A stretch of 64,000 bases of DNA from assembly GCA_022824225.1 (NCBI GenBank), contig JAJEAH010000028.1:65766-129765 (forward strand). The letters run 5' to 3'. Below are positions 19,534 to 64,000 of the stretch, in pieces; position 1 is the first letter of the stretch, and every line of letters starts with the position of its first letter. The notes beneath the pieces were generated by a model. That model did no database searches. It was not told the origin of the DNA and saw only the letters and a program-made list of their open reading frames with translations. The stretch comes from Chloroflexota bacterium (GTDB lineage Bacteria > Chloroflexota > UBA11872 > VXOZ01). The position numbers and the translations under genes are program-made.

Positions 19534-21348
19534 ATGGCTGCGAGCGCCAACGGACGATTTGAGGTCATTGCTGAGGGGCCGTTGCGGGTCGGGGAGACGG
19601 TGGCGTTGCAACTTCACTACACGCCGCCAAGCGGCGGACTGCACACCGGCGGCAACCTGTGGATCTTCTACGATATTCGTCAATTCGGCGACCGCAGGCA
19701 CGCGTTTGAGGCCTCAGGCGGCATCATCGTCAATGGTCCAGCGGGGACAGTCTGGGAGTCCGAGGCGCTCGTCAACGGCGGCACGGTGCGGACGTTCGAC
19801 GTTCACTCTCCGGCGCCTGAATTCCTCCACGCCGTGCACGTGAAGCTCGCAAAGGGCTCAGTGGCGGAAAACCAGAGTGTCGAGGTGCAATTACGCACTG
19901 TGGCCGAGGGCTTTCTGCTGCCGGTCAACGCCATCGACGCCTTTCGTTTCTGGCTGGTGGAAGACCCGCGGGGCGAACTCACGCTCTACCATCCCGACCG
20001 CGACAAGTACCACTACTTCCTGCCGCGCGAGGCGGAACTTTCAATACTGGAGAGCAACCCGCTCACCATCAGCGCCGCCGAGCCGGCCGCGCTGCAGGTG
20101 ACGACGCCGTCCTATTCATCGGGGCAGGCGCTGACACGGGTGGTCGTCACCGATAGATACGGCAATCCCGTTCGTGATGCGGCAGGGGCGGTCACCCTGC
20201 GTACCGGCAGCGGCGAGACAACTGCTGCGCTCAACTCATTCAGCACGGAAGACACAGTACCGGTGCAGGGCCCTGCCGATCGTGTAACGGCGGCGTATGG
20301 GGACATCGAGGCCGTGAGCAATCCGGTGCGGGTCGATGCGGATACGTCCCCGTATACCCTGTATTGGGGCGACCCCCACGGCATGCTCTTCAACCAGCGC
20401 CCCATTGTCGAGCACTTCGCCTGGGGCAAGGATGTGAACGACCTGGATTTTGCGGGCGGCCAGCTCTTCTCGTATAGCATTTGCATCGAGGAAATTTGGG
20501 ACGAACTGCAGGACGCGTGGCGGCAGTATGACTTGCCGGGCGAGTTCGTCGCGTTGCCGTCGGCGGAGTTCGCCACCGGGCCCGACGGCAGTCACCGTCA
20601 CGGCTTCTTCCCCAAGCCGGAGGGCGAGCCGCCGGTCTTCTGTGAAGACCGTCCCGCCGCCAACGATCCCAAGCTCCACGCGCGGTATCACCCCGACACC
20701 GTCTATTGCAACGACTATCAAGAATTCTACCGGGAGATGAAACGCCGGGGCGCGCTCATTCACGGCCACTTTCATACGCATTTCTACGTGCAGGAACACC
20801 TGGCTGAGATCTATCAGAAGCAGCAAACCGACGGGTTCACTGAGGAAGAGAAGATCAACCAGTTCTTGATGCGGGGCGTGAAGCTCGGCATCGTCAGCGG
20901 CAGCGATACCCACGACAACCGCCCCGCCAATCCCTACAAGGAACCGGGGCCGTCAGGGCCGGCGGGACTGACCGCCGTGTGGGCCGAACGGCTCGACCGG
21001 CCCACGCTCTTCGATGCGCTCTTCAACCGGCGCTGCTACGCCACCACCGGCGTGCGCATCATCGTGGACTTTCGTGTGAACGGCGCGTGGGTGGGATCAA
21101 CGGTGCAGGCCGATAGTTTCGCGTTCACGGCGGACGTGGTCGGCACGGCGGACATCGAGCAAATTGACCTGGTGGTGAACGGCGACACAGCCAGAAGTTA
21201 CACACCTGATCAACAGCACGTGCAATTGGAAGATGAGGTGCCGCTGCGGTTCTCTCCGGTCAGCGCCAATTACTGCTACCTCCGCGTGCGGCAGAGAGAC
21301 GGCAATCGCGCGTGGACGAGTCCAATCTGGCTGGAGCCTATGGCGTAG
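19534..21348 (+). CDS. PHP-like / DUF3604-family protein, paralog 2 (HxH degenerated to H-G-M; longer N-terminal beta domain)
   Basis: Shares YWGDPHGM, HGHFHTHFY, GIVSGSDTHDN, ATTGVRI, WTSPIWLE with paralog 1. About 75% identical to paralog 3. Confidence 0.65.
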   Translation: MAASANGRFEVIAEGPLRVGETVALQLHYTPPSGGLHTGGNLWIFYDIRQFGDRRHAFEASGGIIVNGPAGTVWESEALVNGGTVRTFDVHSPAPEFLHAVHVKLAKGSVAENQSVEVQLRTVAEGFLLPVNAIDAFRFWLVEDPRGELTLYHPDRDKYHYFLPREAELSILESNPLTISAAEPAALQVTTPSYSSGQALTRVVVTDRYGNPVRDAAGAVTLRTGSGETTAALNSFSTEDTVPVQGPADRVTAAYGDIEAVSNPVRVDADTSPYTLYWGDPHGMLFNQRPIVEHFAWGKDVNDLDFAGGQLFSYSICIEEIWDELQDAWRQYDLPGEFVALPSAEFATGPDGSHRHGFFPKPEGEPPVFCEDRPAANDPKLHARYHPDTVYCNDYQEFYREMKRRGALIHGHFHTHFYVQEHLAEIYQKQQTDGFTEEEKINQFLMRGVKLGIVSGSDTHDNRPANPYKEPGPSGPAGLTAVWAERLDRPTLFDALFNRRCYATTGVRIIVDFRVNGAWVGSTVQADSFAFTADVVGTADIEQIDLVVNGDTARSYTPDQQHVQLEDEVPLRFSPVSANYCYLRVRQRDGNRAWTSPIWLEPMA

Positions 21349-61894: not shown

Positions 61895-62155
61895 CCGTAC
61901 GTCTCCTTAGATACTGCGGGACTCCCTTGCGACAAGCCTATCACAGGTCTGGTGAAGCGCTATGGCGTGTATAGGCCGGGAATATGGAATCCTTGGAGCG
62001 TTCGCGTTACGATAGAGTCTAGCGGGCGCGGAGAGATGCGGCGCATATCTCCGCGCGTTGGGCGAAGCAGCAATGCGAGTCGCTCTTCGTATTGAGACAG
62101 AGTCAGCGAAATGTCACACGGAAGTGTCACAAGAAGGCAAGGAGTTGTAGATCCA

Positions 62156-62826
62156 TGCAACGAAGACTTGTATGTTCATTATTACTTAGTGGCGCCTCTG
62201 TAGCCGCGTTAGCGGCTTGTGGCGGCGGCTCATCGCTGATTGAGACTGATGCGAAGGAGCCGTCGACTACGCAAGAAGAGGCCAAGGCGGAGCCAACTGC
62301 AGCTCCCGCAGAAGCCCAGCCGACTGCCGAGTCCGCAAAGCAGGCAGAGGTTCTGCCGACGGCGGCGCCTGAGCTTGACTTGCCTAATCTTGGCAAAGCG
62401 CCTGAGATTACGCTCACCGGTTGGTTCAATTCAGAGCCAATCACCATGGCGAGCCTTGAGGGCAAAGCCGCGGCGATGATCGTCTTCTGGACGTACACCT
62501 GACCTGTTTGCCGTAGCGAAATCCCCAGTTTGGTGGATCTCTTCAATACCTACCACGACGACAGCTTCAAGCTGATCAGTGTGCACTTCCCCCATGCCGG
62601 TTCTTCCAGAGACATTAGCGGAATTCAAGCACGGGCTGATGAGCTTGGCGTCACCTATCCGGTGGTAGTAGACAACGATTTGGTGCTTTGGAATGCCTAT
62701 GGCACACGTACGTGGCCGGCCTTCTATGGCATCGATCGGCAGGGCAATATTCGTTTTGCAAAGTTTGGCGGCGGCAGTTTCGAGACCGTGATAGACGCTG
62801 TCAAGAAGCTCAAGGAATTCGGATAG
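62156..62826 (+). CDS. TlpA/ResA-like thioredoxin-fold thiol:disulfide oxidoreductase lipoprotein. Probable selenoprotein, with the in-frame TGA at 62500-62502 read as Sec (U-P-V-C motif).
   Basis: Lipoprotein leader MQRRLVCSLLLSGASVAALAACGG after AAGGAG. The ORF 62092-62502 ends ...AAMIVFWTYT-TGA, and the same frame continues PVCRSEIPSLVDLFNTYHDDSFKLISVHFP... to 62826. The context FWTYT-U-PVCR aligns to the FWASWCGPCR thioredoxin motif. A conserved hairpin lies 17 nt downstream of the TGA. Confidence 0.6.
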
Positions 62827-63016
62827 GTTTCACGGGCGCACAGTCCGCACTGGTCCGTTTCTAAGAGTACAGCAAAGACAGTTCGTGGCGTGCGGCAGCG
62901 GCTACGAACTGTCTTGTTGTCTAAGGTTGGGTGCCGCCGCCCATGTTGCAGCTCTTGTTCTCGCCCAGAGGTACTTGCGGAGTGGACAAGATTCGGGGGT
63001 CGCCTGCCGCTCGCGA

Positions 63017-63067
63017 CCACAAAACAAACAGTCCGTTTGCTGTGCAACGCTGCACTGCAAACGGACT
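63017..63067 (-). terminator. Rho-independent terminator: 11-bp stem agtccgtttgc/gcaaacggact followed by a U-tract on the - strand
   Basis: Perfect inverted repeat at 63030-63040 and 63057-63067. On the minus strand it is followed by GUUUGUUUUGUGG. It sits between the two convergent selenoprotein genes. Confidence 0.6.
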
Positions 63068-63101
63068 CTTAACCTACTGAAACTGTGCTTGAAACCAGGC
63101 T

Positions 63102-63764
63102 CTAGCCTGCCGCCTTGAGCTTCTCGATCGCTTCGATGATCGGGTCGAGGCCGGGGCCGACCTGCTTGAACCGGATGTTACCCTGAGTGTCGATGCCGTA
63201 GACAACCGGCCAGGCATTGTTGCCATAGGCGTTCCAAGCCGAGTGATCGTTGTCGATGGCAATCGGAAAGGCAGCGTTGAGATTCGAGGCCTGCTCGGCG
63301 ATGACGCTCACGTCCTTGGATGCGCCCAAGGCCGGAAAGTGAATAGTAATCAGCTTGAAGCTGTCATCCACGTATGTATTCTGGATATCCACCCAACTGG
63401 GGATTTCGCCGCGGCACACCGGTCAGGTGTAGGTCCAGAAAGCGATGAGGGCCGAGGCCTTGCCCTCCAAGCTCGCCAGCGTGATGGGTTCGGAGTTGAG
63501 CCACTCCGTGAGCGTGATCTCCGGCGCCTTGCCAAGATTGGGCATGTCGAGTGCCGGCGCTGCCGTTGGTTCAGCTTCAGCCTTGGCTTCGGGCTCAGCC
63601 GTCGGTTGCGCCTCAGCCGGCGCGGCCGTGGGCTCCGCCTGGGCTTCTTCCTGCGCGGCCGCCGGCTCTTCCGTTTCCATCAGCGTCGAGCCGCCGCCGC
63701 ACGCTGCCAGCGCGGCCATAGAGGCGCCGCCCAACAGCATCGTGCAAACACTTCGTCGTCGCAT
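63102..63764 (-). CDS. TlpA/ResA-like thioredoxin-fold lipoprotein, paralog. Probable selenoprotein, with the in-frame TGA at 63423-63425 read as Sec.
   Basis: Start MRRRSVCTMLLGGASMAALAACGG after GGAGGAGGG. ...ALIAFWTYT-TGA-PVCRGEIPSWVDIQNTYVDDSFKLITIHFP... The TGA is at the homologous codon, with the same flanking residues and the same downstream stem-loop as the + strand copy. Confidence 0.6.
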
Positions 63765-64000
63765 CGTGCCCTCCTCCATATCTGTAGTCACGCACTTTCC
63801 CAGCTACTTCGAACGCGCAAACGATCCGCGTCTGCTGCGCCTTGCCCACCACGTTGGCCCGTAGCCACGTTCAGCCGAACTACGGCGGCATGATCCTCAC
63901 CAGCCAGTCTAGGACGCCATTGTCATGAAACTGTGAAGGCAGATTTTCTTGCGCCTCCGTTGTTCCCTCTACTCGAATGCCATGATTTCCAACGAGAAGA

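What the first reader, a model, noticed from the sequence alone, without database searches (positions are those of the whole stretch)
62156..63791. Two convergent paralogous TlpA/ResA-like thioredoxin-fold lipoproteins with an in-frame TGA at the first active-site Cys: probable selenoproteins with a U-x-x-C motif and a conserved downstream stem-loop
In both genes the ORF calling stops at the same place, ...(A/A)FWTYT-TGA, and reading through gives P-V-C-R-(S/G)-E-I-P-S-(L/W)-V-D.... The context FWTYT-U-PVCR aligns residue-for-residue with the canonical thioredoxin/TlpA motif FWA(S/T)WCGPCR, so the TGA sits exactly where the nucleophilic Cys should be. A real nonsense mutation would not be expected at the homologous codon in both diverged paralogs (about 60% aa identity), with the frame staying open for ~105 further codons of conserved thioredoxin-fold sequence.

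About 17 nt downstream of each TGA, the nucleotide stretch cgaaatccccagtt(t)gggtggat is conserved between the copies although the flanking codons differ. It folds into a 7-bp stem with a bulged U and a G/U-containing apical loop, the general form of a bacterial SECIS element.

Both proteins carry lipoprotein signal peptides (LAAC lipobox) and Ala/Glu/Pro-rich linkers, so they would be extracytoplasmic Sec-containing oxidoreductases. A strong shared terminator hairpin lies between the convergent genes.
Basis: partly seen in the sequence, partly recalled or inferred. Interest (0 to 1): 0.85.

Follow-up and report, generated by a model that had tools for sequence, protein, structure and literature searches.

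The report
Two surface selenoprotein disulfide reductases
Two neighbouring genes in a Chloroflexota genome almost certainly encode lipid-anchored thioredoxin-like enzymes that use selenocysteine (read from an in-frame TGA) in place of the active-site cysteine; gene callers split them into fragments, but this kind of selenoprotein is already known.

Summary
Gene A (62155-62826, +) and gene B (63764-63102, -) are 62% identical paralogs. Each has one in-frame TGA in FWTYT-TGA-PVCR, at the first Cys of the CxxC motif of a thioredoxin-fold domain closest to M. tuberculosis DipZ.

The selenocysteine reading is strongly supported:
- The TGA is kept in all 27 copies from 14 Chloroflexota species, with dN/dS 0.11-0.23 downstream.
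- More distant homologs carry Cys at that column.
- A hairpin starting 18 nt after the TGA fits the bacterial SECIS geometry. Its synonymous sites are frozen and its closing pair switches A-U/G-C at least three times without ever breaking.
- Five relatives at about 40% identity have TGA at the same codon and a stronger 8-bp hairpin at the same place, with three covarying pairs.
- A bona fide selB lies about 8 kb away, in conserved synteny.
- TGA is an ordinary stop elsewhere in the window.

A CcdA electron-transfer membrane protein is encoded directly upstream of gene B. The likely function is an extracytoplasmic Sec/Cys reductase fed by CcdA.

Corrections: there are two intergenic hairpins, not one shared hairpin, and gene A starts at 62155. 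selA, selD and tRNA-Sec were not found in the DNA I could reach.

UxxC thioredoxin-fold selenoproteins are well known, so this is a new member of a known kind.

The parts
62155..62826 (+). Gene A: 223-aa lipoprotein-type thioredoxin-fold selenoprotein (Sec116-P-V-Cys119), read through the TGA at 62500
   Evidence: Translation. The Pfam AhpC-TSA/Redoxin match spans the TGA. The AF2 model has pLDDT about 90 for residues 71-223. Foldseek top hit is DipZ 5CYY at rmsd 1.7 A.
62155..62220 (+). Gene A signal peptide with lipobox L-A-A-C (Cys22), followed by an Ala/Glu/Pro-rich linker to about residue 70
   Evidence: Read directly from the translation. Residues 1-70 are low-confidence or disordered in AF2. 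No signal-peptide predictor was available.
62500..62502 (+). In-frame TGA of gene A (predicted Sec116)
   Evidence: Conserved in all orthologs. It aligns with Cys in homologs.
62518..62541 (+). Predicted SECIS hairpin of gene A: GA.AUCCCCA-GUU-UGG(U)GGAU.UC. The core stem is 62521-62538, and 25 nt separate the UGA from the apical loop.
   Evidence: Fold -6.3 kcal/mol. RNAalifold predicts the same helix. Closing pair is AU in 19 copies and GC in 8, never broken. Synonymous sites are frozen.
62875..62915 (+). Inverted repeat (15-nt arms, 93% complementary) about 50 nt after gene A's stop; likely terminator of gene A
   Evidence: The consensus terminator scan did not flag it because the T-tract is weak.
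63027..63070 (-). Inverted repeat (20-nt arms, 90% complementary) about 30 nt after gene B's stop, followed on the minus strand by GTTTGTTTTG; likely terminator of gene B
   Evidence: sequence.
63102..63764 (-). Gene B: 220-aa paralog (Sec114-P-V-Cys117), read through the TGA at 63425-63423
   Evidence: Translation. 62% identical to A. Pfam match.
63423..63425 (-). In-frame TGA of gene B (predicted Sec114)
63384..63407 (-). Predicted SECIS hairpin of gene B: AUCCCC-AGUUG-GG(U)GGAU
   Evidence: Fold -5.8 kcal/mol. Same alignment columns as in gene A.
63699..63764 (-). Gene B signal peptide with lipobox L-A-A-C (Cys22); GGAGGAGGG Shine-Dalgarno sequence just upstream
   Evidence: Read.
63969..64000 (-). 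3' end of ccdA (DsbD_TM family, 250 aa), which continues beyond the window. It is on the same strand as gene B and about 205 nt upstream of it.
   Evidence: The contig continuation in L001/L002 shows PF02683. Both canonical Cys motifs are present. ccdA is adjacent to this gene in all 13 related species.

Best explanation
Genes A and B are genuine selenoprotein genes.

Decoding. During translation, a small mRNA hairpin that starts 18 nt after each UGA (a bacterial SECIS element) recruits SelB carrying Sec-tRNA(Sec). The UGA is then read as selenocysteine and a full-length protein of about 220 aa is made. The conserved UGA, the hairpin and the presence of selB are shown. Actual selenium insertion is inferred.

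Products. Each protein has a lipoprotein signal peptide, a flexible Ala/Glu/Pro-rich tether, and a thioredoxin-fold redoxin domain of the DipZ/TlpA/ResA type. The active site is Sec-Pro-Val-Cys, at the N-terminus of helix alpha-1.

Function (inferred). The proteins sit on the outer face of the membrane. Electrons would pass from cytoplasmic thioredoxin through the membrane protein CcdA, encoded directly upstream of gene B, to the Sec/Cys selenenylsulfide. The reduced enzyme would then reduce disulfides or oxidised residues in extracytoplasmic client proteins. The Sec would act as the attacking nucleophile and Cys as the resolving residue. The clients are unknown.

Origin. The pair arose by duplication of a single ccdA-linked gene within one Chloroflexota lineage. 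It belongs to a wider, mostly unannotated set of Sec-containing relatives with the motif WT(Y/F)(G/T)-U-x-x-C...IPS.
For: 1. The TGA sits at the first CxxC position.
- The domain match spans it.
- Cys homologs read FWTY(T/S)C(I/V)N(C/W) at that column.
- The Mtb DipZ structure aligns FWAYSCINC there.

2. Conservation.
- All 27 copies in 14 species keep the TGA, and so do contigs L061 and L062.
- Downstream of the TGA, dN/dS is 0.11 (A) and 0.23 (B) at dS of about 0.65.
- Codon +2, which gene callers use as a GTG start for the downstream fragment, is GTG in only 13 of 27 copies. The downstream part therefore has no conserved independent start.

3. SECIS element.
- Of 85 conserved degenerate codons, only 7 never change codon, and 6 of those lie at -1 to +11 from the TGA.
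- The closing pair is A-U in 19 copies and G-C in 8, with no broken or intermediate state. The switch occurred at least 3 times on a tree built without the hairpin.
- RNAalifold finds the same helix unprompted.
- The geometry fits the published bSECIS model quoted in PMC13188914: loop of 3-9 nt with G[G|U], stem of 4-16 bp, and 16-37 nt from UGA to loop. Here the loop is GUU or AGUUG and the spacing is 25 nt.
- Five of five checked relatives at about 40-43% identity (L141-L145) have TGA at the same codon. They also have a perfect 8-bp hairpin in the same position, with a GGU or GUU loop and -10.6 to -17.9 kcal/mol (folds of a 35-nt stretch around the hairpin). Three of its 8 pairs covary and 100% of cells are paired.

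4. Machinery.
- selB scores as the TIGR00475 equivalog at 375 bits against a cutoff of 242. It lies about 8 kb away and is syntenic in 12 of the 13 related species.

5. No genome-wide recoding.
- TGA terminates 8 of 28 window genes.

6. Fold.
- The AF2 model places the Sec between strand 106-112 and helix 118-133.
- Foldseek top hits are DipZ (rmsd 1.7 A), then YkuV, ResA and the pneumococcal surface lipoprotein thioredoxin Etrx2.

7. CcdA link.
- ccdA is adjacent in all 13 related species and has both catalytic Cys motifs.
- P0158 is a natural fusion of a CcdA membrane domain with two tandem redoxin domains of this family, joined by a Pro/Thr/Ala linker.
- P0010 is a similar fusion with a single redoxin domain.
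Against: - No tRNA-Sec, selA or selD was found in the window, in the 26 kb of contig beyond it, or in the loci of related genomes. The rest of the genome could not be searched.
- The hairpin taken alone is weak in the window copies (-6.3 and -5.8 kcal/mol). It is not more stable than shuffled sequence (z -1.2 and -0.4), and it falls short of the -7.5 kcal/mol criterion of the bSECIS model.
- Within the close clade only one pair covaries. The rest of the stem is invariant, and an invariant pair says nothing for or against pairing.
- Rfam holds no matching family.
- The lipoprotein location and the CcdA electron route rest on sequence motifs and gene neighbourhood only.
- No client protein is identified.
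- There is no experimental evidence for selenium insertion.
Confidence: 0.85

Rival explanations
1. The proteins are selenoproteins, but they act as extracytoplasmic thiol/selenol peroxidases (peroxiredoxin-like) that destroy peroxides, not as disulfide reductases for protein clients. CcdA would only recycle them.
For: - The best Pfam match is AhpC/TSA, PF00578.
- A Thr lies 3 residues before the Sec (T-Y-T-U). This recalls the TxxU/TxxC motif of peroxiredoxins listed in PMC13188914.
- In one relative (L142) the gene sits next to an AhpD-like CxxU selenoprotein gene, which is a peroxide-defence context.
- Sec resists over-oxidation (general knowledge).
Against: - No Pro lies 7 residues before the Sec, so the PxxxTxxC motif is not present.
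- The vicinal U-x-x-C motif and the closest structures are reductases: DipZ, YkuV, ResA, Etrx2.
- Many Cys homologs have CxxC or CxxW in the DipZ-like arrangement.
Confidence: 0.1
2. The UGA is read through, or suppressed, by an ordinary tRNA (Trp or Cys near-cognate), or it mostly terminates translation. In that case the hairpin is a read-through or pausing signal and not a SelB-binding SECIS.
For: - Selenium incorporation is not shown.
- The hairpin is weak.
- selA, selD and selC were not seen.
Against: - A dedicated selB is present and syntenic.
- The UGA sits exactly at the redox-active Cys position, which is where Sec/Cys pairs define selenoproteins.
- The hairpin position, its G(U/G)U loop and its spacing match the bSECIS model.
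- The same design recurs in relatives at about 40% identity.
Confidence: 0.04
3. The genes are pseudogenes, the TGA is an assembly error, or the protein is naturally made as two separate polypeptides.
For: - Public gene calls list four fragments, either unnamed or called 'hypothetical protein'.
- One ortholog (L014 copy A) carries a second TGA at a Trp codon.
Against: - The same TGA is present in 27 copies from 14 species, assembled independently by different projects.
- Selection downstream is strongly purifying.
- The downstream part has no conserved start codon.
- Neither half alone forms a thioredoxin fold.
Confidence: 0.01

Closest known systems
Sec-containing thioredoxin-fold 'Prx-like / Trx-like thiol:disulfide oxidoreductase' families with a UxxC motif. 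These were described from bacterial genomes and marine metagenomes (Zhang and Gladyshev: PMC1088965, PMC1794560, PMC2398784; review PMC13188914).
   Same: - Thioredoxin fold and a PF00578/PF08534 match.
- Sec replaces the first Cys of CxxC.
- A bSECIS hairpin lies just downstream of the UGA.
- Cys homologs greatly outnumber Sec forms.
- A relative (L142) sits next to an AhpD-like CxxU selenoprotein gene. [quoted passage not shown]
   Different: - I could not show that A and B fall in any one of the published subfamilies.
- The GOS 'Prx-like 1' sequences I read have a WUPxC context, and a 'Prx-like 3' read is only 27% identical to A.
- The DipZ-like redoxin domain, the lipoprotein tether, the ccdA linkage and the convergent duplicated pair are not features I found mentioned in those papers.
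C-terminal redoxin domain of Mycobacterium tuberculosis DipZ (PDB 2HYX, 5CYY)
   Same: - It is the closest solved structure by sequence (E 1e-26) and by fold (rmsd 1.7 A over 151 columns, 34% identity).
- The active-site context is the same: FW(A/T)Y(S/T)-C/U-x-x-C.
- It is functionally coupled to a CcdA-type membrane domain.
   Different: - DipZ is one polypeptide: a CcdA membrane domain, the redoxin domain and a PF17991 C-terminal domain.
- A and B are separate lipoproteins, lack PF17991, and have Sec instead of Cys.
ResA/TlpA/StoA and the pneumococcal Etrx1/Etrx2 with CcdA systems (extracytoplasmic membrane-anchored thioredoxins)
   Same: - Membrane-tethered thioredoxin-fold reductases with a CxxC motif, supplied by CcdA.
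- As I recall from the literature, Etrx1 and Etrx2 are a pair of paralogous lipoproteins working with CcdA proteins. I did not check this here.
- These structures are Foldseek hits.
   Different: - NCBIfam scores are far below the ResA and TlpA cutoffs (51 against 170, and 24 against 230).
- These systems use Cys, not Sec.
- No cytochrome c maturation, Sco or Msr genes were seen next to A and B.
NCBIfam NF041054, the 'ResA-like WAxxUGC motif-containing' selenoprotein family
   Same: It is a ResA-like thioredoxin-fold selenoprotein, and it gives a weak hit to both A and B.
   Different: - Scores are 26 and 40 bits against a cutoff of 300.
- The motif there is U-G-C, not U-P-V-C.
- A and B are therefore not members.

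Membership tests
Bacterial selenoprotein (SelB/SECIS-dependent UGA decoding) | In-frame UGA at a position occupied by a redox-active Cys in homologs | tested here: met
   FWTYT-U-PVC aligns with FWTY(T/S)-C-(I/V)N(C/W) in 73 metagenome and about 40 genome homologs, and with DipZ.
Bacterial selenoprotein (SelB/SECIS-dependent UGA decoding) | UGA and the downstream frame conserved among orthologs under purifying selection | tested here: met
   27 of 27 copies in 14 species keep the TGA. Downstream dN/dS is 0.11 and 0.23.
Bacterial selenoprotein (SelB/SECIS-dependent UGA decoding) | [quoted passage not shown] | tested here: met
   The loop is GUU (A) or AGUUG (B). The stem is 6-7 bp plus 2 outer pairs. 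Spacing is 25 nt. RNAalifold predicts the same helix, the closing pair covaries, and synonymous sites are frozen. Relatives have an 8-bp version with 3 covarying pairs.
Bacterial selenoprotein (SelB/SECIS-dependent UGA decoding) | bSECIS free energy of -7.5 kcal/mol or lower | tested here: inconclusive
   The hairpin alone gives -6.3 (A) and -5.8 (B) in the window, and -8.1 in orthologs with the G-C closing pair. Relatives L141-L145 give -10.6 to -17.9 kcal/mol for a 35-nt stretch around the hairpin.
Bacterial selenoprotein (SelB/SECIS-dependent UGA decoding) | selB present in the same genome | tested here: met
   TIGR00475 equivalog at 375 bits against a cutoff of 242, on the same contig about 8 kb away. 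Syntenic in 12 of the 13 related species.
Bacterial selenoprotein (SelB/SECIS-dependent UGA decoding) | selA, selD and tRNA-Sec present in the same genome | not testable with these tools
   None was found in the window, in 26 kb beyond it, or in the 20-kb loci of relatives.
Bacterial selenoprotein (SelB/SECIS-dependent UGA decoding) | Selenium demonstrably incorporated at the UGA | not testable with these tools
   This needs 75Se labelling or mass spectrometry.
TlpA-like/redoxin extracytoplasmic thiol-disulfide oxidoreductases (ResA, TlpA, DipZ redoxin domain) | Thioredoxin fold with the CxxC-type motif at the N-terminus of helix alpha-1 | tested here: met
   Pfam AhpC-TSA and Redoxin score above their cutoffs. 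In the AF2 model the Sec lies between strand 106-112 and helix 118-133. Foldseek top hits are DipZ, YkuV and ResA.
TlpA-like/redoxin extracytoplasmic thiol-disulfide oxidoreductases (ResA, TlpA, DipZ redoxin domain) | Export and membrane anchoring on the outer face | tested here: inconclusive
   The N-terminus has a basic start, a hydrophobic stretch and an L-A-A-C lipobox, read by eye. The tether is disordered. No signal-peptide predictor was available, and lgt/lsp were not checked.
TlpA-like/redoxin extracytoplasmic thiol-disulfide oxidoreductases (ResA, TlpA, DipZ redoxin domain) | Genetic or physical coupling to a CcdA/DsbD electron transporter | tested here: met
   ccdA lies directly upstream of B on the same strand and is conserved in 13 related species. 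Natural CcdA-redoxin fusions exist (P0158, P0010).
ResA (NF002854) / TlpA (NF047696) orthologs | Score above the NCBIfam curated cutoff | tested here: not met
   ResA: 50.6 and 43.9 bits against 170. TlpA: 23.8 and 24.8 bits against 230.
DipZ (M. tuberculosis type) | Single polypeptide with a CcdA membrane domain, a redoxin domain and a PF17991 C-terminal domain | tested here: not met
   A and B end right after the redoxin domain and have no PF17991. CcdA is a separate gene.
NF041054 WAxxUGC_long selenoproteins | Score above cutoff, and a U-G-C motif | tested here: not met
   26.4 and 40.1 bits against 300. The motif here is U-P-V-C.
Peroxiredoxin (catalytic PxxxTxxC/U) | Pro at -7 and Thr at -3 relative to the peroxidatic residue | tested here: not met
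   Thr at -3 is present, but position -7 is Ile, not Pro. The conserved Arg was not examined.

The most novel reading that the evidence does not exclude
The Chloroflexota clade uses an unusually small and weak SECIS. It is a 6-7-bp bulged hairpin that fails the standard -7.5 kcal/mol threshold, and it is a degenerate derivative of the 8-bp hairpin in its relatives. That would imply a lineage-specific SelB-SECIS recognition mode. The clade would also have a duplicated, lipid-anchored pair of selenoproteins wired to CcdA, which would be a surface-exposed selenium-based redox system not described for this phylum in the papers I read.
Probability: 0.15. Interest if true: 0.45.

Novelty: new member of a known kind. 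Interest (0 to 1): 0.3.

Why it matters
In practice, these genes are mis-called. Public collections list each as two short fragments, either unnamed or 'hypothetical protein'. The same holds for a wider set of relatives that I found only because their C-terminal fragments all begin 'MIPS...'. Recognising them adds selenoproteins to the known repertoire of a Chloroflexota lineage and supplies a clean SECIS alignment for a DipZ-like redoxin family.

Biologically, the ccdA linkage gives a testable model for an extracytoplasmic selenol-based reductase. It does not change what is known about selenocysteine decoding, and thioredoxin-fold UxxC selenoproteins have been catalogued since 2005.

Tried and rejected
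- Rfam at gathering thresholds on the window and on three loci found no SECIS or tRNA-Sec family. The only hit was a TPP riboswitch outside the window.
- ARAGORN found no tRNA-Sec in the window, L001, L002, L059 or L003-L015.
- I walked 10 kb beyond selB, using the exact SelB protein P0018. No selA or selD was there: the genes are CinA, a transporter, pterin dehydratase, a solute-binding protein, NYN, a sulfatase and an M20 peptidase.
- Pfam on ten large ORFs of window 1-25 kb, plus precomputed Pfam hits for 26-64 kb, show no selenium genes.
- Single-sequence folding of 46-61 nt after the UGA gave z-scores near 0. Thermodynamic stability alone does not support the hairpin; the support comes from comparative data.
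- The first word-indexed protein search with the full-length protein returned only Cys homologs and none of the fragments. The Sec relatives appeared only in the exhaustive HMMER search with the C-terminal piece.
- A crude scan of the window for other TGA-interrupted frames gave 122 candidates. None apart from A and B had a redox motif around the TGA, and I did not pursue them.
- I searched the GOS supplementary sequences for the exact motifs WTYGU, WTFGU and UINC and found none. Membership in a specific published subfamily therefore remains open.
- The palindrome upstream of gene A is not conserved in relatives, so I dropped it as a candidate regulatory element.
- The consensus terminator scan did not flag the two intergenic hairpins. 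Calling them terminators rests on their position and stem strength only.
Full report
**1. What is in the sequence**

Gene A runs from ATG 62155 to TAG 62826 on the + strand. Gene B runs from ATG 63764 to TAG 63102 on the - strand. Each is interrupted once by TGA: A at 62500-62502 and B at 63425-63423.

Read through, they give proteins of 223 and 220 aa that are 62% identical over their full length. Both read ...FWTYT-TGA-PVCR(S/G)EIPS(L/W)VD..., and the frame continues for 107 and 106 codons.

With Cys placed at the TGA, Pfam AhpC-TSA and Redoxin match residues 81-201 above their gathering scores, straight across the TGA.

Both N-termini have a basic start, a hydrophobic stretch and the sequence L-A-A-C followed by GGGS, which is a lipobox pattern. 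About 50 residues rich in Ala, Glu and Pro follow.

There are two separate strong inverted repeats, 62875-62915 just after A and 63027-63070 just after B.

**2. Where it comes from and what surrounds it**

The same DNA is on an ENA metagenome scaffold that extends beyond the window end. The window stops inside the last codons of a ccdA gene (DsbD_TM family). This gene lies on the same strand as B, about 205 nt upstream, and has both catalytic Cys motifs.

Further along the scaffold lie prs, ddl, a Mur ligase, a hypothetical gene, a methyltransferase, and then a complete selB. The selB scores as the TIGR00475 equivalog at 375 bits against a cutoff of 242 and is about 8 kb from gene B.

A scan of one genome per species found 13 further Chloroflexota MAG species with 80-91% identical orthologs. 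The order fucosidase - A - B - ccdA - prs ... selB is kept in 12 of them. One, L015, has a single copy directly downstream of ccdA. That suggests the convergent pair arose by duplication of a single ccdA-linked gene.

**3. Is the TGA translated?**

- All 27 copies in the 14 species carry TGA at the same codon. Two metagenome contigs do as well.
- Downstream of the TGA, dN/dS between orthologs is 0.11 (A) and 0.23 (B), at dS of about 0.65. That frame is therefore under protein-level selection.
- The start codon that gene callers use for the downstream fragment (GTG at codon +2) is present in only 13 of 27 copies. There is no conserved independent start.
- TGA ends 8 of 28 ordinary genes in the window, so the genome does not reassign TGA globally.
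- More distant homologs have Cys at this column, with CxxC or CxxW motifs. This covers 73 metagenome sequences, about 40 genome sequences, and the solved DipZ structure.

Pseudogene, sequencing error and split-protein readings are excluded.

**4. The RNA element**

A hairpin starts 18 nt after the UGA. Its sequence is G-A-(A)-[A/G]UCCCC(A)-GUU-(U)GG-U-GGA[U/C]-(C/A)-U-C. On its own it is weak: -6.3 and -5.8 kcal/mol in the window copies, and no better than shuffled sequence. The comparative evidence is much stronger.

- Across the 27 copies, 85 degenerate codons are conserved at the amino-acid level. Only 7 of them never change codon, and 6 of those 7 lie between -1 and +11 of the TGA. They include Pro+8, Ser+9 and Val+11 inside the stem, while four-fold sites elsewhere vary freely.
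- The closing pair is A-U in 19 copies and G-C in 8, and is never broken. The A-to-G change is non-synonymous (Ile to Val) and always comes with the synonymous GAT-to-GAC change.
- On a tree built with the hairpin masked, this switch happened at least three times, in both paralog lineages.
- RNAalifold predicts the same helix without being told.
- The geometry fits the published bacterial SECIS model (PMC13188914): a 3- or 5-nt loop beginning G-U or A-G-U, 6-7 bp plus two outer pairs, and 25 nt from UGA to loop. The free-energy criterion is the one exception; it is met only in the G-C variants (-8.1 kcal/mol).

**5. A wider Sec family**

An exhaustive HMMER search with the C-terminal piece returned several cluster representatives of about 105 aa that all begin 'MIP(S/W)...'. 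I fetched the DNA for five of them. All five have an in-frame TGA at the homologous codon, reading (F/M)WT(Y/F)G-U-INC..VIP(S/W).

All five also have a perfect 8-bp hairpin starting 18 nt after the UGA. Its sequence is AUCCCCUC-GGU/GUU-GAGGGGAU, at -10.6 to -17.9 kcal/mol for a 35-nt stretch around the hairpin. Three of the 8 pairs show compensatory changes, and 100% of cells are paired, against 45-63% when the partner is slid by 1-3 columns.

These proteins are about 43% identical to A. At least two of them (L141, L142) also have lipoprotein-like N-termini. The window's hairpin is therefore a weaker, bulged derivative of a clearly selected element.

Two other genomes (L029, L036) hold cytoplasmic-looking, full-length DipZ-C-like proteins with U-I-N-C. 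Sec has evidently replaced Cys more than once in this superfamily.

**6. What the proteins are**

AlphaFold2, run with a shallow alignment, gives a confident thioredoxin-fold domain for residues 71-223 (pLDDT about 90) and a disordered N-terminal 70 residues. The Sec lies between a beta-strand (106-112) and the long helix (118-133), which is the canonical CxxC position.

The best structural and sequence match is the redoxin domain of M. tuberculosis DipZ: rmsd 1.7 A, 34% identity, sequence E-value 1e-26. YkuV, NHLRC2/SOQ1 Trx-like domains, ResA and the pneumococcal surface lipoprotein thioredoxin Etrx2 follow.

NCBIfam scores are far below the ResA, TlpA and StoA cutoffs, and far below the cutoff of the one ResA-like selenoprotein model (NF041054). 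A and B are members of the TlpA-like/redoxin superfamily but not of those named families.

**7. How it most likely works**

Shown:
- the conserved UGA at the nucleophilic Cys position;
- the selected hairpin with SECIS geometry;
- selB in the same genome;
- the thioredoxin fold;
- the ccdA adjacency;
- natural fusions of a CcdA membrane domain to one (P0010) or two (P0158) redoxin domains of this family.

Inferred:
- SelB with Sec-tRNA(Sec) binds the hairpin and inserts Sec.
- The proteins are exported and lipid-anchored.
- CcdA passes electrons from cytoplasmic thioredoxin to the Sec-Cys selenenylsulfide.
- The reduced selenolate attacks disulfides or oxidised residues in extracytoplasmic clients, and Cys119 or Cys117 resolves the intermediate.

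The clients are unknown, because no cytochrome c maturation, Sco or Msr genes are adjacent. A peroxidase-type role is a minority alternative. In its favour are the PF00578 best hit, a Thr at -3, and an AhpD-like CxxU selenoprotein gene next to a relative in L142. Against it, the Pro of the PxxxTxxC motif is missing.

**8. What is not shown**

- selA, selD and tRNA-Sec were not found in the roughly 90 kb of this genome that I could read, nor in the 20-kb loci of relatives. selB has no known role other than Sec insertion, so I treat its presence as strong evidence but not complete evidence.
- Selenium incorporation, export, lipidation and the CcdA relay are untested.

**9. Comparison with what is known, and novelty**

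Thioredoxin-fold UxxC selenoproteins have been catalogued from genomes and marine metagenomes since 2005-2008 and are listed in a 2026 review. [quoted passage not shown] I could not place A and B in a specific published subfamily. Exact motifs are absent from the part of the GOS supplement that is held, and a 'Prx-like 3' example is only 27% identical.

In public collections the four fragments are unnamed or 'hypothetical protein'. The finding is therefore real and currently unannotated, but it is a new member of a known kind.

Interest is modest. The attractive points are the clean demonstration of SECIS selection inside a coding region, including an amino-acid change that tracks an RNA pair, and the ccdA-linked duplicated surface selenoprotein pair.

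Noticed in passing
L014:10049-10051 (ortholog of gene A in MAG OZ253463.1): This one ortholog has a second in-frame TGA, replacing the conserved Trp 26 codons upstream of the Sec codon (TGG to TGA). It may be a recent pseudogenisation of copy A in that species, or an assembly error.
   Followed up: partly
L015:8951-10453: One related species has only a single Sec-containing redoxin gene. It lies directly downstream of ccdA on the same strand, and the fucosidase gene follows. This looks like the pre-duplication arrangement. By sequence the single copy resembles paralog A, but it sits in the position of B.
   Followed up: partly
P0158 (623 aa, from the representative library): This is a natural fusion protein. 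A CcdA/DsbD membrane domain is followed by two tandem redoxin domains of this family (FWTFGCYNC), joined by a Pro/Thr/Ala-rich linker. It is the same parts list as ccdA plus genes A and B, in one chain.
   Followed up: partly
L142:794-1339 (NCBI GCA_041578315.1, contig JBFGHJ010000673.1): Immediately upstream of a Sec-containing relative of A and B lies an AhpD/CMD-like ORF. It is also split by an in-frame TGA, in a C-H-Y-U (CxxU) motif, so this is probably a second selenoprotein gene in the same operon.
   Followed up: partly
L029:9941-10948 and L036:9923-10921: An Actinomycetota MAG and an unidentified bacterium encode full-length DipZ-C-like proteins (redoxin domain plus PF17991-like C-terminal domain, no signal peptide) with TGA in FWTY(S/T)-U-INC. 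This looks like an independent Cys-to-Sec replacement in the same superfamily.
   Followed up: partly
window, 28 genes checked: TAG is the stop codon of 18 of 28 genes, TGA of 8 and TAA of 2. A TAG majority is unusual for a bacterial genome with 62% G+C. Both selenoprotein genes also end in TAG.
   Followed up: no
window:62026-62056: A near-perfect 31-bp palindrome (GCGCGGAGAGATGCG G CGCATATCTCCGCGC) lies in the divergent intergenic region between the fucosidase gene and gene A. It is not conserved in the 13 related species.
   Followed up: yes
L059:13001-13116: A TPP riboswitch (RF00059, 63 bits) lies upstream of a cytosine/purine-type transporter gene, about 1.1 kb beyond the selB-cinA pair and outside the window.
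   Followed up: no
window about 44000 (junction): In the ENA assembly of the same sample the window is covered by two scaffolds: scaffold_129 ends near window 44-48 kb and scaffold_1566 starts near 44 kb. The window comes from a longer (152 kb) assembly that joins them.
   Followed up: no
L063-L140 (metagenome homologs): Many Cys-containing homologs of this redoxin family have C-x-x-W instead of C-x-x-C (for example FWTYTCINWLRTLPY). These are single-Cys active sites in proteins that are otherwise DipZ-like.
   Followed up: no
window:17485-19146 and 19534-21348: Two adjacent paralogous DUF3604 genes on the same strand.
   Followed up: no
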